NCBI RefSeq assembly: GCF_032191835.1
Contig: NC_083232.1
Location: forward strand, 72,416,001-72,480,000
Direction of reading: 5' to 3'
From: Heteronotia binoei
Lineage: Eukaryota
DNA length: 64,000 nucleotides
The notes under the pieces were generated by a model. That model made no database searches. It saw only the letters and a program-made list of their open reading frames with translations, and was not told where the DNA came from. This document shows, piece by piece, positions 6,901 to 53,240 of the stretch. The position numbers were made by a program, and so were the translations under genes. The first letter of the stretch is position 1. Each line of letters opens with the position of its first letter.

Positions 6901-7694
6901 CAGCTCCCTCGGAACTATGACAGTGCTATCCTAATCTAAGTACACTCTTTTAAGTTGACTGATTCAGTGATTTAGAAGGGGGCAATTTTGCTTAGGATGG
7001 CACTGCAAGTTGCTTTGACTTTTCTGGAAGATAATGGAATAAGATGAATAACTTGCAAAGAATCTTTATTTATGATTTTATTTAACACAGTTCTCTTTTT
7101 CAGTGCAGTTCCAAGCAAAATTACACCTTTCAACATTGAATGAAGTCAGTGGGCTTAAAAGGATGTCTGCCTTTCATCAACTAAAAAGTCGCTTAGCAAT
7201 CACAATGGAGGAGTAACAGAGCTGGAGCTGAAGACATGCCAACATTAAGCTGACATGAGCATGCACTTGAGCTGATGCTGAATTTAGGCCCAGATCTTGC
7301 TCCTCCCCCTTATTTAACATATGCAGAATTTCAATTAAAGACTAACTAGCTAAGCATGATGTATGAAGGGAGGTGCACGGATAACTGAAGTTAGCATCTC
7401 CACTCCAAACTGTAATTTTAATGAAGATTTATAGACCTGGGTTGGGCGGCAGTCAGGGGAGGGGGGGTGGAGATGAAGCCCACTTAATTCATACATTCGT
7501 ACATTACAGGTAAATAGACCAGGTTTCTCCAGTGACAATGGGAAAGAGGGAGGGTCATATGACACATGCCTGTTTACAGCAGCAACACTAGTTGGAACAA
7601 AATGTTGATTTAAGGTGACATAGGAATGCAGCCGGAGACAGAAAAAGATTGTATGACATCATTTTGGCATCTCAACTACACTTGTTGGCAAAAC

Positions 7695-7876
7695 CAGGGC
7701 TTTGTTTGTAGCAGGAACTCCATTGCATATTAGGCCACACCTTCCTGATGTAGCCAATCCTCCAAGAGTTTACAGGGCTCTTAGTACAGGGCCTATTGTA
7801 AGCTCCAGGATGATTGGCTACATCAGGGGTGTGTGGCCTAATATGCAAATGAGTTCTTGCTACAAAAAAAGCCCTG
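7695..7876. mobile_element. Palindromic hAT-type MITE (182 bp)
   Basis: Near-perfect hairpin over the whole length and a perfect 8-bp TSD GGCAAAAC. Confidence 0.88.
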
Positions 7877-8563
7877 GGCAAAACAACGCACATAGTTCAT
7901 AATCACTGGAGATCAGTGAGTGGGGGTGAGCAATCTAAAGCAGTGGCCCCCAACCTTTTTGACCCCAGGGACCGGCTACTTGCATACAAATTCTATGAAC
8001 AGCCAACTTGTTTGCATAAAATATGGCACTAATTTTTTCATGTGCAATCTTTTTATTTGTATTTTTAAAATATGTCCATGTGTGTGGGTATGCATGTGTG
8101 TATGCGTACACCTGAAAGACATGTTGACTTCTGGTGACTGTAGGGAGGTGGCTGAGTAAAGTCTGCCCCTGCCTCTGGTATTCCAGGGAGGTCTCCCTTC
8201 CACGTAATTGCCAGAGTCGACCTTGCTTAGCTTCTTTGATCTGACAATTATTTATGATGAAATCTCCCACGCAAATGTTATCTGGAGCTCCTTTCAGTAT
8301 TACAAGGAATAGGGCTTGCCTGGGCTATCCAGGCAACTGCAATCCTAAGAGGAGTTACTCCCTTGAAGTCAATGGGCTCAGCAGGGTGTAACTTTACTTC
8401 AAGTTGCACTGTAAGGGCTGGCGGTTTATACTTTCCTTCTGTTATGCCTTTGAGATAAGGGCACTTAATCCAAACTTTTAGTCATGACAACAGGATTTTC
8501 CCTCCAAGTCTTTCCTTCACAATGGTAACAAAATACCCACAGCCCCATAATTCTGCAAGTTAC

Positions 8564-8675: not shown

Positions 8676-9687
8676 CTGTAACAAAGAAGAATGGGCTTTG
8701 TGAATATCTTACTATTGAATAAGGTGAATGAAAAACAAAGATCAAAAATTAAAAAAAAATCAAGAGCTGTACTCTGCAGCAGTGAAAAGCAGATCCCACA
8801 TTAATACAGGGAGATGTTTAAGGCAGTCCGAATTTTCTGTCTGCAGGACATCAAGATGAATAGGAGCTGGTTATACACACAAACACATGCACACACCCAC
8901 TAGGAAACATAGAAGATTTAGGTTGTCAATGGATACTGCTGACCATTTGGCCTTGACAAAGGAAATGGCACCGGCAAGCCATGGGGCTCTGTGAAGTCCT
9001 CAGAAAAGTCCTCCTGCACATAAAAGTCTATAGGATTAGGGGCCTGAAACTGGAATTCACTGCTTAGTACTATCTTAATTTATAATTCCTCTTGCAAATG
9101 CAAGAGATAAGTGGGACAAGATGGATAACCCTGGCCTGTGTTTTGTTTGGATACACTGTCAGCATTCCATCTCTGCTTTCGATAAAGTCGAGTAACCCAA
9201 TCACTTTCAGAAAAGATGAAGTATTGAAGCTGGGGAAGGGAAGGAATTCTCCAAGGTCCAAGAATGATTAGCTTTTGGCATACAAAGAACCCTTATCTAA
9301 TCCTGTCACCACAGTTTGTTTCCTAGGACATAATAATATCACAGCCACACATAATACACGGAGGCAACTGCTTTGCTTTAGAGCACGGGTGTCAAACTCA
9401 TTTGTTATGAGGGACAGATTTGACATAAATGAGACCTTATCAGGCCGGGCCATATGTATCATAAAATGTAATGCCAGGTAGTGGACATATAAACTTTATA
9501 AAGGACACAAACACAATTAAAGATTTTTTTAACTTAAAATAAAACATGCTTAAAATATTAGCATGCTTGCAATATTCTGTTTTACAGTCTCTGATAAATG
9601 TCACCTCTTCCTATGAATTATTGCACCAAAAATGCAGACAATGTTTGTGCTGTACCAGTCTTGAATGTGTGCTGTTCAGGTGTACAC

Positions 9688-10292
9688 TGTCACGAGCTGG
9701 GGCTGAGTCAGGCAAAGTCCAGGGGCGGTCCAAGGTCGGCAACTCGTGAGCAAGGAGGGTCCAAGGCGCCAAAACAGAATCGTAATCCAGGTATCACAGG
9801 TCAGAGGTTCAGAAGCCGAAGTCAGGGGGTCCAGAGGTCCAAGCCAAAGTCAGGAATCCAAAAGCCAAAGTCAAGAGCCGGAGTGGATGCTAGGATGTCA
9901 GGTATGTGACTAGTTGCTTCCACAAAGCCTCCTCCCAAAGCCCACAACTATATAGCCCTCTGCTGCCTGTTGCTCATTTGGGCTAATTGCTGTCTCAGAG
10001 CAGCAGCCAGGATCCTGCCGAAACTTAAGCATCCTCACACTTAGAAGGGCCAGAATCCTTTCACCAATCAGGGCTCAGGGAGCGTCTTGCTTGTGAGCGT
10101 GCCGCCCTCCTCCGATCCCTGAGGTCCTGACGGAGGCGGTCACGCACACGAGCCACCCGAGAGGGCGAGGCAGGGGGGCTTGGATCTTCTTCAGCAGGAG
10201 GCAGGGGCACTGGTGCAGGTGGCAGAGGCACAGTTGCTTCTGCAGGCTCTGCAGGCTCGGTTTCTTCTGCAGGGTCCCCAGCACCCATGACA
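9688..10292 (-). repeat. 3' LTR (605 bp)
   Basis: Immediately follows the PPT on the minus strand. 604/605 identical to the 5' LTR. Confidence 0.97.
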
Positions 10293-13200
10293 CTATCCCC
10301 CCCCCCAGGGCCTCCCTCCGTCGAGGGGCCTGGGAGGTCGGGGTGGTCGCTGTGGAATTGTTGCACCAAGTCCGGGGCATGAAGATTGTCCACAGGTTCC
10401 CAGGACCGGTCTTCCGGGCCGTATCCCTCCCAGTCCACAAGGTACTGGAGGCCTCCACGATGGTACCGGGAGTCCAGAATCTGGCGCACCTCATATTCTT
10501 CCTCGTCATCCACCAACACCGGTGGTGGCGGCGGTGGGGAAGGAGGCCGAGCTGGGTCAGGGGGTGCAGCTGGAACAAGGAGGGAGCGATGGAACACAGG
10601 GTGAATGCGGAGGTGGGGTGGCAACTGGAGCCTGAAGGCGACGGGGTTTATTTGTTCTACGACGGGGTACGGTCCAATGAACCGTGCATCCAGCTTGTGA
10701 GACCGACCAGGCCGGCGCAGGTAGCGAGTTGAGAGCCACACCTGATCCCCCGGCTGCACTGGAGGACCTTCTTGCCTCTTTCGGTCCGCAGCCCGTTTAT
10801 ATGCCTCCTTGGCCTGATGTAGCTGCTCTCGGAGCAAGTCTTGGCTGGCGCGGAGTTCTTGCAGGTAGGCATCGACGGCGGGGACATTCGTGGGTGGTAG
10901 GATTGCCGGGAAGAACCGAGGGTGGTACCCGTAGGTTGCAGCAAACGGGGTCATTTGGGTGGATGAATGGACCGCGTTGTTGTATGCAAACTCCGCTAGG
11001 GGCAATAGAGTGGTCCAGTCATCCTGCTGGTAACAGGTGTAACAGCGGAGATATTGCTCTAGCGTGGCATTGGTGCGCTCTGTCTGGCCATCTGTCTGTG
11101 GGTGGTAGGCTGAGGACAGGTGCACTCGAGTACCCAGGCTGGAATGGAGGGCTTGCCAGAACCGAGAGGAGAACTGAGGGCCCCGATCGGAGATCAGATG
11201 GGCTGGGAGTCCGTGCAGACGAAAGATGTGTTGCAGGTAAAGCTGGGCCGTCTCCTGAGCTGTGGGAAGTTTCGGGCACGGAACAAAGTGGGCCATCTTG
11301 GTAAATAGGTCGACGACCACCCAGATACAAGTCTGACCCTTGGAGCGCGGAAGTTCCGTGATGAAGTCCATCGAGATGGTCTCCCAGGGTCCTGAAGATG
11401 TGGGCAAGGGCTGTAGCAACCCTGAGGGTTTGGCTGGGATGTCTTTGGCCCGTCGGCAGACGTCACAGGAGCTGACATAACGGGCAACATCAGCGTGAAC
11501 TCGTGGCCACCAGAATTCCCTTGTCAGCAAGTGGGTGGTCTTATGCTGTCCAAAGTGCCCGGCGGGTAACGAGTCGTGGGTCAGGCGTAGCACTTCTGCC
11601 CGCAAGGGCCCGGGCGGCACATAGAGGCGTTCGCGGTGTAGCAAGAGGCTGCCTCGAGTCGTGAACTCGCCTGTTGGGTCATCTTGGAGAGCCTGGAGGT
11701 GTTGCTGGACCCAGGGATCATTGGCCTGGCTAGCCCGAATGTCCTCCACGAGTGCTGGTGAAGTGGAGGTGGCTGCAAATACTGAGGGCGGCAGGATTGG
11801 AGCAGCGGGCGTGGTCTCAGTTGAGGCAGGGGCGTATTCCGGTTTCCGGGAGAGCGCGTCTGCTTTCCGGTTCTGGGTATGGGGGATGTAGGAGATCCGG
11901 AAGTCGAAGCGAGAGAAGAATAGGGACCACCGGATCTGGCGCTGGTTGAGACGGCGGGTGGTCTGGAGGTGTTCCAAGTTCCGGTGATCGGTGAGCACTT
12001 GAACAGGGTGGCGAGCCCCTTCGAGGTAATGTCGCCAAACCTCAAACGCCGCCTTGATCGCGAGCAACTCCCTCTCCCAGATGGTATAGTTCCTCTCTGC
12101 AGCAGTGAGCTGGCGCGAGTAATAGGCGCAGGGCTGGAGTGGCTGGGACGGCTCCTCGCGCTGGGACAGCACTGCTCCCAGGGCCACGTTGGAGGCATCA
12201 GCTTCCACCGTAAAGGGAAGCTGGGAGTCAGGGTATCTCAGGAGTGGCCCGGTGGCAAAGCGAGTCTTCAGGGTGGAGAAGGCGTTATCGGCCTCTGGGG
12301 ACCAGCGGAAGGGTTCTTTGGGGCGGAGTAGTTGAGTCAGGGGTGTGGTCAGGGATGCGTAGGCCGGGATGAATTGCCGATAGTAGTTGGCAAAACCAAG
12401 GAACCGCTGCAGGTCTTTGCGATTCTGAGGAGCCTGCCAGGTCAGGACCGCTTCTACTTTTTTCGGGTCCATGAGGATCCCCTGCGGTGACACAATGTGC
12501 CCAAGGAACTCAACGGAGCGCAGGTCGAAGTCGCACTTCTCCAGCTTGGCGTAGAGGCCATGGGCTCGTAGGCGCTGCAGGACCTGGCGGACGTGCTCGG
12601 CATGCTGGGCAGGATTGCGGGAGTAAATTAAGATGTCATCCAGGTATATGATCGCGAAGCGGTCGAGCAGGTCCCGGAATATGTCATTCATGAACCTCTG
12701 GAAGACAGCGGGGGCATTGGTCAATCCGAAGGGCATCACCAGGTGCTCGTACTGCCCGTATCGGGTCCCAAACGCGGTCTTCCACTCGTCTCCGGGCCGT
12801 ATGCGCACCAAATTGTACGTTCCACGGAGGTCCAGCTTGGTGTAAATTTGGGCCCCCTTTAAGCGATCCAAGAGTTCAGGGATCAGTGGTAGAGGGTACC
12901 GGTCGCGGATGGTGATCTTGTTCAGGGCCCGGTAGTCATTGCACAGCCGGAGCTCCCCACTTTTCTTCTTCACGAAGAGGACTGGAGCAGACAGGGGAGA
13001 GGTTGAGGGTCGGATGAATCCGCGTTTCAGGTTCTTGTCCAGGTAGTCTCGCAGAGCTGCCAACTCAGGCTCCGACATCGGGTACAGACGCCCCACCGGG
13101 AGTGGTGCCCCAGGTACCAAATCAATGGCACAGTCATAGGGTCGGTGAGGGGGAAGCTGATCTGCTCCTGTCTCTTCAAAGACATCGGCGAAGTCCGCAT

Positions 13201-13756
13201 ACTTCTGAGGGAGCTGAGGACCACCACTCGGGATGCCGGCTGCTAGAGTGGTGGGAGGAGTCAGATGGGGGCATGGGTCTCGGAAACGTAGTTCCTGCTG
13301 GGCCCAGTCCACGATGGGGTTGTGCAGCTTCAGCCAGGAAAGGCCCAGAATCAGCGGGAAGCGAGGCATGCGGGCAACATTAAACTGCAGCTGTTCTTGG
13401 TGCTGCTGGACGTGGAAGGTGATGGGGCAGGTCTCCTGGGTGACGGGGCCAGAACGGAGGAGGCGCCCGTCGATAGCCTCCACCAGCGTTGGAGTCTCTT
13501 TTGTCTGCACTGGTATCTGGTGCTGCTTTACAAAGGCGGCATCTACGAAACAGTGGGCCGCTCCCGAGTCCAGCATGGCATATACGAACAGCCAGCGTTC
13601 ATCAGGCAGACGGAGTTTGACTGGTAGCAGGAACGGGCCCGGGGTATCAGTCTGCTGTTCGGAGGACCCAGCTAGTCGCCCCAGGCTGGAGGGCCCACTT
13701 ACGCCTGGGGCTGCTCTTTTGGCGGCGGTGGCAACGAGGGTCCGGGTATCCGACGC
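10061..13756 (-). CDS. pol: Pol frame (-1 relative to gag): protease, RT, RNase H, integrase, chromodomain
   Basis: Frame is open from 13756 (after a TAA at 13757-13759) to TGA at 10061-10063; the ORF track starts at an internal ATG (13576). Motifs: LDSGA (protease), YLDD (RT), DAS/E/TDH (RNase H), HHCC plus D-D-E and GPY (integrase), EYEV...YLVDWEGY...SWEP (chromodomain). Confidence 0.96.
10293..10306 (-). promoter_or_regulatory. Polypurine tract
   Basis: GGGGGGGGGGATAG directly precedes the TG of the 3' LTR on the minus strand. Confidence 0.9.
13664..13723 (-). promoter_or_regulatory. Candidate -1 ribosomal frameshift signal (slippery site plus H-type pseudoknot)
   Basis: G_CCA_AAA_G (13723-13716), then a 6-nt spacer, stem 1 CCCCAGGC/GCCTGGGG (13710-13703 with 13686-13679) and stem 2 GGGCCC/GGGTCC (13696-13691 with 13669-13664). 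Lies in the gag/pol overlap. Confidence 0.65.
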
Positions 13757-14589
13757 TTAGCAGGGCAGCCAGAGGCATAGTGGCCTGCCGTACCGCAGTA
13801 AAGGCACAGATTCTGCGTGCGGCGTCTGGCCTTTTCTTCTGGAGTCAGGCGGGGTCGAGCAGCTCCAAGCTGCATAGGCTCCTCCTCGGCTCTGGTACTA
13901 ACTGGGGATGGGCGAGGAGCCAAGTGGCACGGCGCAGGGAGCTGGCGCCCTCTGGTCTTGGCTTGGCGGCGACTTTCCAGGCGGCCATCAATGCGGAGGC
14001 AGAGGGTGATAAGTCCTTGGAGCGTGGGTGGCGACTCCACCCTGGCCAGTTCATCCAGGACTTCCTCTGCCAGCCCCTCGGTAAACTGGTCCATTTGGGC
14101 AGCCTCATTCCACGCCAAGTCTTGGGCTAGGAGCTTGAATTCGGTGGCATACTGAGCCACTGAGGATTTGCCTTGTTTCAGCGCCCTGATCTTCCGGTTG
14201 GCTGTGGCTGCTTGGACTGGGTTTGAGAAGGCAGCAGACAGGTGGGCCTCAAACCCCTGGTAATCAGTCAGTAGGGGAGAGGACGCAACCAGCAAGGGTG
14301 TGGCCCATTTGGCCGCCTGCCCCTTTAACAGGCTGATGATGAAACACACCTTTGTTTTGTCGTTGGGGAAGTCCCGAGCTCTTAGTTCGAAGTACAGCCG
14401 GCACTGTGCTAGGAAAGCAGGAAATTCTTCCACGGCACCCCCAAATCTGTCAGGTGGGGGAACTGGGCACTTGGCTGGAGCACTGGCCACAGGTTGTTGC
14501 TGCAAGTGTACTACTGCCTGTGTCAGCTGCTGTACCTGGGCTTGGAGCGCAGCCAGTAGTCCTGTGGTTCCACTTGCTTCAGCATCCAT
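13699..14589 (-). CDS. gag: Gag (296 aa), PEG10/RTL-like capsid domain plus CCHC zinc knuckle
   Basis: Uninterrupted ORF with a strong Kozak context (CAGGATGG) and no upstream ATG after the predicted transcription start. Contains PDRFGG...FLAQC...[11 protein letters not shown]...AAKWA capsid motifs and [14 protein letters not shown]. Confidence 0.95.
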
Positions 14590-14614
14590 CCTGTGGAGTG
14601 GGTGTTGGTTGTGG

Positions 14615-14624
14615 GTGGAAGCAA
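14615..14624 (-). promoter_or_regulatory. Self-priming PBS (TTGCTTCCAC)
   Basis: Lies 2 nt inside the 5' LTR end and does not begin with TGG. It is the exact reverse complement of GTGGAAGCAA at 14862-14853 in the LTR. Confidence 0.8.
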
Positions 14625-14626
14625 TC

Positions 14627-15231
14627 TGTCACGAGCTGGGGCTGAGTCAGGCAAAGTCCAGGGGCGGTCCAAGGTCGGCAACTCGTGAGCAAGGAGGGTC
14701 CAAGGCGCCAAAACAGAATCGTAATCCAGGTATCACAGGTCAGAGGTTCAGAAGCCGAAGTCAGGGGGTCCAGAGGTCCAAGCCAAAGTCAGGAATCCAA
14801 AAGCCAAAGTCAAGAGCCGGAGTGGATGCTAGGATGTCAGGTATGTGACTAGTTGCTTCCACAAAGCCTCCTCCCAAAGCCCACAGCTATATAGCCCTCT
14901 GCTGCCTGTTGCTCATTTGGGCTAATTGCTGTCTCAGAGCAGCAGCCAGGATCCTGCCGAAACTTAAGCATCCTCACACTTAGAAGGGCCAGAATCCTTT
15001 CACCAATCAGGGCTCAGGGAGCGTCTTGCTTGTGAGCGTGCCGCCCTCCTCCGATCCCTGAGGTCCTGACGGAGGCGGTCACGCACACGAGCCACCCGAG
15101 AGGGCGAGGCAGGGGGGCTTGGATCTTCTTCAGCAGGAGGCAGGGGCACTGGTGCAGGTGGCAGAGGCACAGTTGCTTCTGCAGGCTCTGCAGGCTCGGT
15201 TTCTTCTGCAGGGTCCCCAGCACCCATGACA
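14627..15231 (-). repeat. 5' LTR (605 bp)
   Basis: Direct repeat of 9688-10292. The only difference found by eye is G14886 versus A9947. Confidence 0.97.
14888..14893 (-). promoter_or_regulatory. LTR TATA box (TATATA); predicted transcription start at ~14862
   Basis: TATATAG lies 31 nt upstream of the PBS-complementary G. Also present at 9949-9954 and in the solo LTR. Confidence 0.72.
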
Positions 15232-16950
15232 TACACATCTGTAAGTTGCAAACCTACTTTTGATTCATTGGCATTCATTACAGATATCTCATGGTCAATG
15301 CTTCGAGGCTAAGACCCAGAGGAACATGAAGCAGTTGGACACTGTGAGCTTTTGTACAGAAGTTGCTTAATGCACTAGTCAAGAACATGTGAAGGCACCA
15401 TGGCATAGACTGAGGACTATGTGCTTGTCTACAAAACTATAATTTTCCCCAGAAAATTTTCCCCTGGGGTGGAACACACTCTCAGCTTAATTTTGATATT
15501 TCTTTTCTAAATAGTTCACATGCTTTCCTATTGAGAAAGACTGGAGGGCATGAGTACAGTGAAAAAGAGGAGAGGAACCCAGTTACACCCATAACAAGCC
15601 CAAAAAAACTCTCCCTCTCTCTGTAGCAAGGCAAAAAGCTCATACCTTCACTAAAACGTTGCTAGTCTTAAAAGCACTCTTTGTAGCACTCCTGATGGTG
15701 GGGACTGGCAAAAGCAGCTCTGGCTCTTTCTTTCCTTCCCTGGGGCACGATGAGGGGGAGGAGCCTCAGCCATTTATTAGAAGGAAGAGAGGTTTGTCTC
15801 AGTAGCTCTCAGGGTGATTAATTGAGCCTGGCAAACTTAATCACCCAGCAGAGCTATAGAGCTAAGCTATAGAGCTCAGCCACTGGCTGAGGCTGCTCTT
15901 CCCTCCTCCTCCCTTTGGGAAAAGAGAGGGGGGAGAGGGAAAGGCTGCTTTGCTGCTCTGGCCTGTCCGGGGAGAAACACAAAATGGCGACCGGAAAAAG
16001 CAGGCAAGGGAAAATGAAGCAGACAAGTCAGTTGCTGGAGGGCCTGATTGGAGCCCTCAGTGGGCCTGATCCGGCCTGCAAGCTGTATGTTTGACACCCT
16101 TGCTTTAGAGGGACAGCCATGCCACTATATACAGAAACACACATACCATTTAAGAATGTTATGATGCAGTAGCTGTTCACAATTGAATGAGCAGCTACTA
16201 AAGCACAGACTAATGCACACCAATGGAGAATGTTTGATAGTTATATGTGTATGCAGAAAAAAACAACTATTACTTTAAAACTGTGCAGGCCCTGCCATCA
16301 ACTTCCTGGAATGCAACCAAAGATCCAGAGACTTCAGCAGAAGCAGAACTTTCCCCTTCTCTCTCCTGTGGCAGCTCACTGAGCTCACACCCCAAATTTT
16401 GTTTCTGGGTGTTGGTGGACTCTCAGGGACAACACAGGGTGAAATGGGGAGTCTCCAGTGGGAATTAATGGAAACTGCCAACCCCTCTTCCTACCACTTT
16501 GGAACTGCATGGTTAAATACCTATCATTCCTTTCTAACTACCAAAAATGAGCTATGAAATAAATAAACCCATGAAGGAGCTGTGTGCTAAGAAACTTCCA
16601 AATAACTTAAAATGGAGGGGGAGGGATAAGCTATACAATCATTACTTTGCATCATTATTTTGCTTGTTGTATTCATGTAAATAGTTATACCCTGCTTTTC
16701 CCCAACTAAACTGTCTCCTTGAGAAAGTTTTTTTAAAAGATGTAATTCATGCACTGCCATATACTTGAACTCTAGAACAATACATTAAATCACATACTGG
16801 TCGGATGAGCTGTGTGCAGTATGCAATAAACCAACTGTAATAATCTCCTTACTGCATTCCACACAACAATCACAGTAACTGTGAAACTGCTGTCTGGGGC
16901 AAGTGTTGCATGTTCTCCAGGTCCAAAATTGGTCCAGGCCTCCTCTCCAT

Positions 16951-20377: not shown

Positions 20378-20888
20378 TAAAAAAAAAAGGCAGGTAGTCC
20401 CCTGTGCAAGCACCAGTTGTTTCCGACTCTGGGGTGACGTTGCTTTCACAACGTTTTCACGGCAGACTTTTTTACGGAGTGGTTTGCCATTTATCAAAGA
20501 TTTCAGGTTTTCACGGCTGGTAACATCATTAGGGTTTGTAGAATCTTTCGGGATCAAGTGCCGTGTTCTACTGGAGAAAGTTTTCCTTCCAGACGTTTCG
20601 TTCTCCGCAGCTGAGAACGAAACGTCTGGAAGGAAAACTTTCTCCAGTAGAACACGGCACTTGATCCCGAAAGATTCTACAAACCCTAATGGTTTGCCAT
20701 TTCCTTCCCCAGTCATCTACACTTCCCCCACAGCAAGCTGGGTACTCATTTTACCTCGGAAGGATAAAAGGCTGAGTCAACCTCGAGGTGGCTACCTGAA
20801 CCCAGCTTCTGCCGGGATCGAACTCAGGTTGTGAGCAGAGGTTAGGACTGCAGTACTGCAGTTTTACCACTCTGTGCCACGGGGCTCT
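20378..20888 (-). mobile_element. Sauria-type SINE interrupted by a Penelope-like insertion
   Basis: tRNA-like head with A box TGGCACAGAGTGG and B box GAGTTCGATCC. Colinear with 51704-51988. 12-bp TSD TAACAGACCCTT (20366-20377, 20889-20900). Confidence 0.88.
20493..20689 (-). mobile_element. Penelope-like element (PLE) 3' fragment with inverted 5' duplication; perfect palindrome 20527-20691
   Basis: 79-bp perfect arms around a 7-nt loop. 13-bp TSD TGGTTTGCCATTT (20480-20492, 20690-20702). The GAAACGTC...AGAACACGGC...GCCGTGAAA layout resembles squamate Penelope pseudo-LTR ends (from recall). Confidence 0.75.
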
Positions 20889-33994: not shown

Positions 33995-34350
33995 CGGCCG
34001 CTGAGCCATGCCTCTCTTCCTTCTATTGGCTGAGGCTCCTCCCCCTCCTGGTCCCCTGGGCAAGGAAGGAAAGAGCCAGAGCTTCCTTTGCCTTGTTCCC
34101 TGGATTCCATGGGAGAAATACAAAGAAAGCACCTTTAAGACCAACAACTGCTAATGTTTGAAGCATGTTTTAAGTTTTTTTTAAAATTGTGTTTATCTGC
34201 ATCCTTTTTAAAGCTTATATCTCTGCTACCTAATCTTAAATAGATATACACATGGCCTGGCCTGACATGGCCCTGGCTCGACAAGGCCTCATTTACATCA
34301 GATTTGGCCTTCATAACAAATGAGCTCAACATCCCTGTTCTAAACAACTA
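33995..34350. mobile_element. Right half of a hAT MITE (same family as 35236-35791)
   Basis: Colinear with ~35420-35791 and ends AATGAGCTCAACATCCCTG. The left half is absent. Confidence 0.75.
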
Positions 34351-35235: not shown

Positions 35236-35791
35236 CAGGGGTGTCAAACGTGTCCCGGGGGGGCTCCTATCAGGCCCCCGGGCAACTGGCTTTCATCTGC
35301 TTCCTTCTCCCTCTCTCTTGCTTCCTTCTGCATCACAGCTTGCTTAGCCAGGCTTGCTCAATCACACAGGAGCCTCTATTTCCCTCATTTGCTGAGGCTC
35401 CTCTCTTGGGGAGGAAGGGGGAAAGGGATAGCTTACTTTGCTAGGCTGTCTCAATTGCACAGCAGAGCTACTTAGCCAAGCCTCTCTTGCTTCTATTGGC
35501 TGAGGTCCCTCCCCCTCCTGGGGAAAGAAGGAAAGAGCCAGCTTCCTTTGCCCAATTTCCTGGATCCCATGGAAGAGATACAAAGAAAGCACCTTTAAGA
35601 CCAACGAATGCTAATGTTCTAATCATGTTTTATTTTTTAATAAAAAATATTTAATTGCGTTTGTCTGTGCCCTTTATAAAGTTTATACCTCTGCTATCAG
35701 GTATTACATTTTATGACACACATGGCCCAGCTTGACAAGGTCTCATTTGTGTCAGATTCATCCCCCATAACAAATAAGTTTGACACTCCTG
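35236..35791. mobile_element. hAT MITE (556 bp)
   Basis: TIRs CAGGGGTGTCAAAC / GTTTGACACTCCTG. 8-bp TSD TCCTAATG/TCCTGATG. Confidence 0.85.
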
Positions 35792-37721: not shown

Positions 37722-37923
37722 TGAACATATGAAGCTGCCTTATACTGAATCAGACCTTTGGTCCATCAAAGTCAGTATTGTCTTCTCAGACTGGCAGCGG
37801 CTCTCCAGGGTCTCAAGCTGAGGTTTTTCACACCTATTTGCCTGGACCCTTTTTTGGAGATGCCAGGGATTGAACCTGGGACCTTCTGCTTCCCAAGCAG
37901 ATGCTCTAACACTGAGCCACCGT
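37722..37923 (-). mobile_element. tRNA-derived SINE with CR1-like tail
   Basis: B box GGTTCAATCCC and 10-bp TSD CCCTACGATA. Relatives at ~16951-17123 (+), ~61290-61445 (-) and ~707-775 (partial). Confidence 0.78.
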
Positions 37924-37934
37924 CCCTACGATAC

Positions 37935-38105
37935 CATGGGGCGGAATTCTAGCAGGAGCTCCTTTGCATATTAGGCCACACATCCCTGATGTAGCAATCC
38001 TCCAAGAGCATACAAGGCTCTTTTTAGTAAGCTCTTGAAGGATTGGCTACATCAGGGGTGTGTGGCCTAATATGCAAAGGAGCTCCTGCTAGAATTCTAC
38101 CCCTG
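37935..38105. mobile_element. Palindromic MITE, variant of the 7695 family
   Basis: Shared core CTCCTTTGCATATTAGGCCACAC...GTGTGGCCTAATATGCAAAGGAG with different GAATTCT-containing ends. TSD not resolved. Confidence 0.78.
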
Positions 38106-48280: not shown

Positions 48281-48876
48281 TGTCATGGGTGCTGGGGACC
48301 CTGCAGAAGAAGCTGAGCCTGAAGAAGAAACTGTGCCCCTGCCACCTGCACCAGTGCCCCTGCCTCCTGCTGGAGAAGATCCAAGCCCCCCTGCCTCGCC
48401 CTCTCGGGTGGCTCGTGTGCGTGACCGCCTTCGTCAGGACCTCAGGGATCGGAGGAGGGCGGCACGCTCACGAGCAAGACGCTCCCTGAGCCCTGAGTTT
48501 TGAAAGGATTCTGGCCCTTCTAGAGTGAGGATGCTTGAGTCTCAGCAGGATCCTGGCTGCCTCTCTGAGCCAGCAATTAGCCCAAATGGGCAACAGCCAG
48601 CAGAGGGCTATATAGCTGTGGGCTTTGGGAGGAGGCGTTGTGGAAGCAACTAGTCACTTACCTGACGTTCTAGCATCCACTTCGGCTTTTGACTTTGGCT
48701 TCTGGACTCCCTGACTTTGGCTTTGACTTCTGGACCCCCTGACTTCGGCTTCTGAACCTCTGACCTGCGATACCTGGACTGTGATTGGGTTTTGGCGCCT
48801 TGGACCCTCTTTGCTCACCAGCTACAGACCTTGGACTGCCCCTGGACTTTGCCTGACCCGGCCTCAGCCCGTGACA
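48281..48876 (+). mobile_element. Solo LTR of the same chromovirus family (596 bp)
   Basis: TGTCATGGG...CGTGACA with a perfect 5-bp TSD CCTTG (48276-48280, 48877-48881). Roughly 90-92% identical by eye to the 605-bp LTRs. No internal sequence on either side. Confidence 0.96.
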
Positions 48877-52995: not shown

Positions 52996-53240
52996 ACCAT
53001 TTTTGCACACAGCTTACCTTGCAGTCACAATCCTGTTCCCTCCGCAGAGTACGGTCGGATTTCCCACCATCTGCGCCTAAGTTACAGGAAGTGCCGCAGC
53101 TTTTGCGTAGCAAACGTAAAACCCAGTTTACGTTTGATACGCAAAAGCCGCGGCACTTCCTGTAACTCCGGCGCAGATGGTGGGAAATCTGAGAGGGAAC
53201 AGGATTGTGACTGCGAGGTAAGCTGTGTGCGAAAACGGTC
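52995..53240. mobile_element. CpG-rich palindromic MITE (probably Harbinger-like)
   Basis: GACCATTTTTGCACACAGCTTACC / GGTAAGCTGTGTGCGAAAACGGTC ends, with long near-perfect arms. Confidence 0.72.

What the first reader, a model, noticed from the sequence alone, without database searches (positions are those of the whole stretch)
14615..14893. tRNA-independent self-priming signal in a squamate chromovirus
Seen in sequence: next to the 5' LTR there is no TGG-type tRNA PBS. The minus strand reads ...GTGACA-GA-TTGCTTCCAC. These 10 nt are the exact complement of GTGGAAGCAA (14862-14853), whose first G lies 31 nt downstream of TATATA (14893), where transcription should start. The pairing extends beyond a small internal loop, because R-region GTCAC can pair with the LTR-terminal GTGAC. 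The first 18 nt of R (GTGGAAGCAACTAGTCAC) and the GTGACA end are invariant in the ~8-10% diverged solo LTR. Established: S. pombe Tf1 primes reverse transcription with the 5' end of its own mRNA annealed to the PBS and cut by RNase H, and this has been proposed for vertebrate Tf1/sushi elements. Inference: this intact reptile element uses the same mechanism and could serve as a vertebrate model for testing it.
Basis: partly seen in the sequence, partly recalled or inferred. Interest (0 to 1): 0.75.

Follow-up and report, generated by a model that had tools for sequence, protein, structure and literature searches.

The report
Self-priming lizard LTR retrotransposon
A very young jumping gene, likely from a gecko, lacks the usual tRNA landing site and has ten bases that pair with the predicted start of its own RNA, so it likely primes its own copying, a trick shown in yeast and already predicted for vertebrate members of this group.

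Summary
A young Ty3/gypsy chromovirus (LTRs 604 of 605 identical) has no TGG primer site. The ten bases 2 nt after the LTR are the exact complement of 14862-14853, which lies 31 nt after TATATA. Chance is about 0.4% anywhere in the LTR. Its reverse transcriptase groups with gecko and other squamate elements inside the vertebrate Tf1/sushi clade. Of 15 relatives with a defined LTR end, 11 show the same layout in different letters, among them all three fish-clade loci, each matching its own LTR best. The primers mostly begin at an initiator dinucleotide (17 of 23). Self-priming is therefore very likely, but it is the known hallmark of this group in print, and this scan noted it before in moss chromoviruses. 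Weaker points: RNA reads gave no start site, the solo-LTR invariance is not significant, and the side helices are unsettled. Side finding: Pol reads 76 codons into the 3' LTR. New member of a known kind.

The parts
14627..15231 (-). 5' LTR, 605 nt, TGTCA...TGACA
   Evidence: one mismatch (14886) against the 3' LTR
14888..14893 (-). TATATA, predicted TATA box
   Evidence: similar spacing in 10 of 23 relatives
14853..14862 (-). predicted RNA 5' end and 10-nt self-primer, preceded by T (YR initiator)
   Evidence: start site not observed in RNA
14845..14849 (-).
   Evidence: weak or absent in relatives
14823..14831 (-). candidate arm pairing with 14588-14580 at the gag start (leader helix)
   Evidence: not significant, 12 of 60 shuffles as good
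14679..14688 (-). candidate distal U5 arm pairing with 14638-14629 (10 bp, U5 inverted-repeat-like)
   Evidence: 3 of 100 shuffles as good; broken without compensation in the solo LTR
14625..14626 (-). 2-nt spacer GA between LTR end and PBS
   Evidence: offset 1-3, mostly 2, in relatives
14615..14624 (-). [quoted passage not shown]
14574..14580 (-). 7 nt in early gag that also match the PBS (predicted competitor)
13699..14589 (-). gag, 296 aa (DUF4939, Retrotrans_gag, Ty3 capsid, zinc knuckle)
10061..13756 (-). pol, stop-to-stop 1231 aa in the -1 frame: protease, RT, RNase H, integrase, SH3, chromodomain
10293..10306 (-). polypurine tract (ten G, then ATAG)
10061..10291 (-). last 76 codons of pol, lying inside U3 of the 3' LTR
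9688..10292 (-). 3' LTR, 605 nt
15232..15236 (-). target-site duplication GTGTA, partner at 9683-9687
48281..48876 (+). solo LTR of the same family, 7.6% diverged, duplication CCTTG

Best explanation
This is a recently inserted Ty3/gypsy chromovirus of the vertebrate Tf1/sushi clade whose primer site is complementary to its own LTR, and it likely primes reverse transcription Tf1-style with the predicted first ten bases of its own RNA. Predicted steps: RNA polymerase II starts at 14862 (T|G, 31 nt after TATATA). The 5' end folds onto 14624-14615. The element's RNase H would cut the RNA at or just after base 10, and RT would extend that end through the GA spacer into U5. The layout, clade and covariation are shown here. 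The start site, the cut and the extension are inferred from Tf1.
For: Exact 10-nt complement, 19 of 5000 shuffles. The primer helix is the strongest of all helices between the PBS neighbourhood and the LTR. Its pairing probability is 1.0 for RNAs ending at 14610-14580. In the RT tree the window joins Gekko (0.99), in a squamate group (0.99), in a vertebrate clade (0.98) nested among fungal chromoviruses. Of 15 relatives with LTR ends defined by the LTR pair, 11 have 9-14 nt own-LTR complements; for 10 of the 11, none of the 20 foreign LTR sets matched as well. Two of the four failures have a TGG site and lie at the base of the tree or with the outgroup. Cross-test of the window and three fish-clade loci: own LTR 9-11 nt, foreign 5-8 nt. 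Of 23 relatives with a complement, 17 start it at a YR dinucleotide (background 22%) and 10 have a strict TATA 25-36 nt upstream. Self-priming is described as the common feature of Tf1/sushi elements (PMC10085805).
Against: RNA reads from three raw runs showed no pile-up of ends at 14862. The libraries carry both strands about equally, most reads are 90-95% alike (other copies), and depth over the PBS is only a few reads. In nested folding models the primer:PBS probability falls to 0.38 once early gag is included (to 14560) and to 0.02 at 14400. The fold of R-U5-PBS as a whole is no more stable than shuffles (z 0.27). Two of 13 in-clade relatives (L055, L197) show only 6 and 8 nt. The three-duplex structure needed by Tf1 is not clearly met. 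Host tRNAs could not be screened (no genome).
Confidence: 0.82

Rival explanations
1. The element primes with its own RNA, but not in the Tf1 way. The primer comes from the second RNA of the packaged pair, or transcription starts further upstream and the primer is released by two cuts.
For: No start site was seen in RNA. In-cis pairing is weak in long-RNA folding models. The side helices of the Tf1 structure are not clearly conserved.
Against: Complements in relatives begin sharply at YR dinucleotides about 30 nt after TATA-like boxes, as expected if the primer is the RNA 5' end. With early gag included, pairing is highest for starts at 14862-14866 (0.38) and near zero for starts at 14870-14880.
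Confidence: 0.11
2. A host tRNA half or another small RNA primes at this site, as in some copia elements, and the match to the LTR is secondary.
For: Half-tRNA priming exists in copia lineages (PMC6317226). A tRNA-like repeat in the window (37855-37926) has a 7-nt complement to the PBS. Host tRNAs were not screened.
Against: No TGG, and only 7 nt of match. PMC6317226 found half-tRNA primers only in copia among the plant elements it surveyed. PBS letters differ among relatives and follow each element's own LTR.
Confidence: 0.05
3. The match is chance, or a structural helix for packaging or translation that has no role in priming.
For: Three other internal sites also have 10-nt complements in the LTR. 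A competing hairpin with early gag is predicted.
Against: Position directly after the LTR, 1 of 5000 shuffles at the expected distance from TATA. Recurrence in 11 of 15 relatives, and no alternative primer site.
Confidence: 0.02

Closest known systems
Vertebrate Tf1/sushi chromoviruses (sushi-ichi of Takifugu and kin; GyDB Fungi/Vertebrates cluster; Butler et al. 2001, seen only as cited in PMC10085805, PMC6317226, PMC4600332)
   Same: RT clade; chromodomain at the end of integrase; Gag related to PEG10 (50% to a marsupial PEG10); gag and pol in different frames; LTR ends fitting the Sushi motifs listed in PMC3601003; PBS complementary to its own LTR.
   Different: Squamate host. No AATAAA or ATTAAA in the LTR, whereas the fish-dominated Sushi LTR model has a clear AATAAA (PMC3601003). 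Pol tail of 76 codons in U3, against 3-26 in the fish-clade loci read here. I found no reptile element with a described self-primer in the searches made, but Butler 2001 itself was not readable.
Tf1/Tf2 of Schizosaccharomyces pombe, Tj1, Tosmo1-3, Tcry1
   Same: Self-primer at the predicted RNA 5' end, PBS just after the terminal CA, and an RNase H domain.
   Different: Primer match is 10 nt here (11 nt in Tf1, recalled). Two frames here, against a single ORF or an in-frame stop (PMC10085805). The three-duplex pretzel is only partly supported here. Priming was shown by experiment in Tf1 and is inferred here.
Plant CRM group A chromoviruses (PMC3059260)
   Same: The polyprotein frame runs into the 3' LTR, as pol does here.
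   Different: CRM elements use tRNA-Met, and the LTR-coded part is the CR motif. Here a chromodomain precedes the polypurine tract and the LTR-coded tail has no shown function.

Membership tests
Ty3/gypsy chromovirus | Order PR-RT-RNase H-IN with a C-terminal chromodomain | tested here: met
   Pfam domains in that order, Chromo E 2e-13
Ty3/gypsy chromovirus | Two LTRs TG...CA, target-site duplication, polypurine tract | tested here: met
   605-nt LTRs, 5-bp duplication, G-rich tract
Tf1/sushi group (Fungi/Vertebrates cluster) | RT groups with vertebrate and fungal chromoviruses | tested here: met
   FastTree on 69 RT-RNase H sequences: vertebrate clade 0.98, nested among fungal elements. Tf1 and sushi-ichi themselves were not in the tree.
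Tf1/sushi group (Fungi/Vertebrates cluster) | No tRNA PBS; 10 nt or more, starting 0-5 nt after the LTR, complementary to the 5' LTR (criterion of PMC6317226) | tested here: met
   10 nt at offset 2
Tf1/sushi group (Fungi/Vertebrates cluster) | The self-primer is the 5' end of the RNA | tested here: inconclusive
   No pile-up of read ends at 14862 in three raw RNA runs; indirect support from TATA and initiator spacing
Tf1/sushi group (Fungi/Vertebrates cluster) | Three-duplex pretzel around the PBS | tested here: inconclusive
   Central duplex clear. Two rival 5'-side helices, one broken in the solo LTR. 3'-side helix not above shuffles.
Tf1/sushi group (Fungi/Vertebrates cluster) | RNase H cuts the RNA duplex and RT extends the primer | not testable with these tools
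   RNase H domain present; activity needs biochemistry
tRNA-primed LTR elements | PBS begins with TGG and matches a tRNA 3' end | tested here: not met
   No TGG after the LTR end; host tRNA set not available

The most novel reading that the evidence does not exclude
Beyond the known self-priming, the squamate LTR does double duty. Its U3 encodes a 76-117 residue extension of integrase after the chromodomain (acidic and proline-rich, then arginine-rich). Here the tail ends in an SP-acidic-aromatic motif that also ends several fish elements, and in Podarcis and Anolis it carries RRSAR[LI]. It would be a second, LTR-encoded chromatin-targeting or regulatory module, a vertebrate parallel to the plant CR motif.
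Probability: 0.2. Interest if true: 0.55.

Novelty: new member of a known kind. Interest (0 to 1): 0.27.

Why it matters
It extends the sequence evidence for tRNA-independent priming to a young squamate element, with covariation across gecko-like, fish-clade and fungal relatives. It also gives exact, checkable predictions: RNA start at 14862, a 10-nt primer, and two extra bases at the cDNA end. In the papers I could read, self-priming in vertebrates is implicated rather than demonstrated, so mapping these ends in host tissue would close a small gap. A specialist would not be surprised, since this is the group's published hallmark. The U3-coded integrase tail is the less expected feature, but its function is not shown.

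Tried and rejected
1. Start-site mapping from RNA. One search gave 8 runs and 4 were laid (three raw runs from two samples, one contig set). The only listed pile-up was at 14725 in one run. Depth is higher over R-U5 than over mid-U3 or the internal region, but the fall upstream of about 14880 is gradual and most reads come from diverged copies. No verdict. None of the 40 variants shown falls in the primer or PBS, but 109 more were not shown, so invariance is not claimed.
2. Solo-LTR invariance as evidence: rejected.
3. The GTCAC extension as a shared feature: adjacent helices in relatives are 0 to -4.9 kcal/mol in mixed registers. In the reads about half carry a change at 14845 that keeps a wobble pair.
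4. The distal U5 helix as the conserved stem: -15.6 kcal/mol here and -7.2 in the solo LTR with no compensating change; not above shuffles in relatives.
5. Gag-alignment scans: two found no conserved stretch and one found no relative. RT alignment scans replaced them, and none of the loci placed in the tree fell in the squamate group.
6. Purifying selection on the U3-coded tail: 3 synonymous and 7 non-synonymous changes against the solo LTR, which fits neutrality.
7. Rfam found only a tRNA-like repeat in the window.
8. No host genome is held, so there was no copy survey or tRNA screen.
9. PMC109269 is not held. PMC4340606, PMC7472051 and PMC4585706 gave nothing relevant.
10. Look-ups of earlier scan notes by sequence, by place and for the tail found nothing.

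Full report
Anatomy. The finding lies at the 5' end of a 5544-nt LTR retrotransposon on the minus strand. The 5' LTR is 15231-14627 and the 3' LTR 10292-9688. Both are 605 nt, differ at one site (14886) and are flanked by a GTGTA duplication, so the insertion is very recent. gag runs 14589-13699 and pol 13756-10061 in the -1 frame. Pfam finds capsid and zinc-knuckle domains in Gag, and protease, RT, RNase H, integrase, SH3 and chromodomain in Pol. The overlap has no canonical XXXYYYZ heptamer, though a -27.8 kcal/mol hairpin lies in it, so Gag-Pol expression of this copy is not shown. A solo LTR of the family lies at 48281-48876 with its own 5-bp duplication.

Observation. After the terminal CA come GA and TTGCTTCCAC (14624-14615), the exact complement of 14862-14853, which begins 31 nt after TATATA. 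There is no TGG. A match of 10 nt or more occurred in 19 of 5000 shuffled LTRs, and in 1 of 5000 at 20-50 nt after the TATA position. Of 4319 internal 15-mers, 21 (4 sites, this one included) have such a match. The solo LTR differs at 45 of 595 sites, and 160 of 589 18-nt windows are identical.

Family. The closest named RT is from Gekko japonicus (86%), then Podarcis (73%), snakes and Anolis. Gag relatives are squamate, frog and fish elements and marsupial PEG10. The host is therefore likely a gecko (inference). In a FastTree of 69 RT-RNase H sequences, rooted on two distant records, the window joins Gekko (0.99), inside a squamate group (0.99), inside a vertebrate clade (0.98) nested among fungal chromoviruses. 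Tf1 and sushi-ichi were not in the tree. The clade is identified as Tf1/sushi from its content and from PMC10085805.

Comparative test. I fetched relatives with an RT alignment and examined 163 loci; the 72 distant virus records L085-L156 were left out. A repeat pair flanked RT in 44, and 20 of these ended in ACA or TCA. I dropped five by eye as assembly overlaps or false ends (L007, L026, L053, L054, L178), leaving 15. Of these 15, 11 have a perfect 9-14 nt complement in their own LTR, starting 1-3 nt after the CA. For 10 of the 11, none of 20 foreign LTR sets matched as long (L173: 2 of 20). Four fail. L217 and L223 have a TGG site and fall with the outgroup or at the base of the tree; L055 (6 nt) and L197 (8 nt) have older, diverged LTRs. 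All three fish-clade loci with a defined end (L005, L006, L009) pass. In a four-way cross-test with the window, own-LTR matches are 9-11 nt and foreign ones 5-8 nt.

A looser scan of 76 further loci gave hits in 15, against 5 for a non-reversed control. I kept 12 loci and dropped five rows by eye (first row of L021, L035, second row of L075, L178, L222). Among the 23 relatives so selected, 10 have a strict TATA 25-36 nt before the primer and 4 have one at another distance. In 17 of 23 the primer starts at a pyrimidine-purine step, against a 22% background. The three fish-clade loci have TATA-like words at about -28 to -30 and T|G, as the window does. These counts are conditional on my selection, and four of the 23 belong to one family.

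RNA data. Five indexed runs hold part of the stretch (best share 0.51), and three raw runs of the same species label were added. I laid three raw runs (two samples) and one contig set on 14300-15300. Most reads are 90-95% alike, both strands are about equally covered, depth over the PBS is a few reads, and no read ends pile up at 14862. The start site is neither confirmed nor refuted. Reads that leave the left flank continue into sequence like the right flank, which fits insertion into a multi-copy host repeat; both flanks match other places in the window.

Side helices. Tf1 needs a three-duplex structure around the PBS (PMC10085805). Here two helices compete for the LTR end. The other is a 10-bp helix, 14688-14679 with 14638-14629 (3 of 100 shuffles as good), which is broken without compensation in the solo LTR. 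A 9-bp helix from 14831-14823 to the gag start is not significant (12 of 60). In relatives an ungapped 3'-side helix stood out only in L016, L021, L022, L028, L060 and L076. Early gag carries 7 nt that also match the PBS. With it included, predicted primer pairing falls from 1.0 to 0.38, and to 0.02 for RNA reaching 14400. Nested equilibrium models cannot represent the pseudoknotted Tf1 structure, so this is a caution and not a refutation.

Mechanism. Most likely (0.82) the RNA starts at 14862, its first ten bases anneal to the PBS, RNase H cuts at or just after base 10, and RT extends through the GA spacer into U5. Shown: layout, clade, covariation. Inferred from Tf1: start site, cut, extension. 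Rivals are self-priming by another route (0.11), a tRNA fragment (0.05; a tRNA-like repeat in the window matches only 7 nt) and chance (0.02).

What is known. PMC10085805 (passages and section 28 part 1) calls self-priming a common feature of the Tf1/sushi group. PMC4600332 (passages) says it was demonstrated for Tf1 and implicated from fungi to vertebrates. PMC6317226 (passages) says the same, and the window meets its 10-nt criterion. PMC3601003 (passages) gives the Sushi LTR motifs. PMC11011659 (passages) reports 310 metaviral capsid frames in the anole. Butler 2001 and the Levin papers I saw only as citations, and PMC109269 is not held. No supplements were read; those of PMC6317226 list individual elements and may bear on novelty. 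Searches (listings only, unless named above) showed no paper on a reptile self-primer, but the library lacks most subscription journals. Two earlier scan notes report the same layout in moss chromoviruses (unchecked).

Side finding. Pol continues through the polypurine tract for 76 codons into U3. The solo LTR keeps the frame (9-nt indel) and the stop position. This part is less diverged than the rest of the LTR (10 of 223 versus 35 of 372, p 0.036), but 3 synonymous to 7 non-synonymous changes show no protein-level constraint. Four squamate-clade homologues have about 97-117 residues after the same glycine-rich patch; that this patch marks their LTR start is inferred from the window. Of 58 chromodomain-bearing homologues, 5 end in SP-x-aromatic like this tail and 5 carry RRSxR[LI]; the likeness of the latter to nucleosome-binding motifs is recalled. 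Plant CRM group A elements also code into the 3' LTR (PMC3059260, passages). Searches showed no vertebrate report.

Verdict. The feature is real and is very likely a self-priming signal. It is a new member of a known kind. Interest 0.27.

Noticed in passing
window 10061-10291 (-), same sequence at 15000-15230 and in the solo LTR 48282-48503: Pol reads 76 codons into U3. The frame and stop are kept in the solo LTR. Squamate homologues have similar long tails and several fish ones end in a similar SP-x-aromatic motif. No sign of purifying selection in the one pair tested.
   Followed up: partly
window 14568-14580 (-): The first gag codons hold the two halves of the primer sequence in swapped order and are predicted to compete for the PBS. 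This is a possible switch between translation and priming, or chance.
   Followed up: partly
window 13699-13756 (-): The gag-pol overlap has no canonical XXXYYYZ slippery heptamer, but a strong predicted hairpin (-27.8 kcal/mol) lies in it.
   Followed up: partly
window 14627-15231 (-): No AATAAA or ATTAAA anywhere in the LTR, unlike the published fish Sushi LTR model. R-U5 carries short GACTTTGG-like repeats. The poly(A) signal is unknown.
   Followed up: no
window 9200-9687 and 15232-15900: The element inserted into an older multi-copy repeat. Both flanks match 34001-34344 and 35464-35786, and RNA reads join the two flanks.
   Followed up: partly
window 37855-37926 (-): tRNA-like sequence (Rfam tRNA 54 bits; called Pro-GGG), probably the head of a tRNA-derived SINE. 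It has a 7-nt complement to the PBS.
   Followed up: partly
window 20527-20691, 37938-38103, 53055-53192, 7694-7877: Long near-perfect inverted repeats (58-82 nt arms, short loops), probably non-autonomous DNA transposons.
   Followed up: no
L157-L235: Many contigs in prokaryotic genome bins carry eukaryotic Ty3/gypsy RT, including fish-clade ones (L158, L163). Likely binning contamination.
   Followed up: no
L016, L021, L022, L028, L060, L076: Fungal-clade relatives show a strong 9-13 bp helix just 3' of the PBS, the clearest sign of a pretzel-type side duplex in this set.
   Followed up: partly
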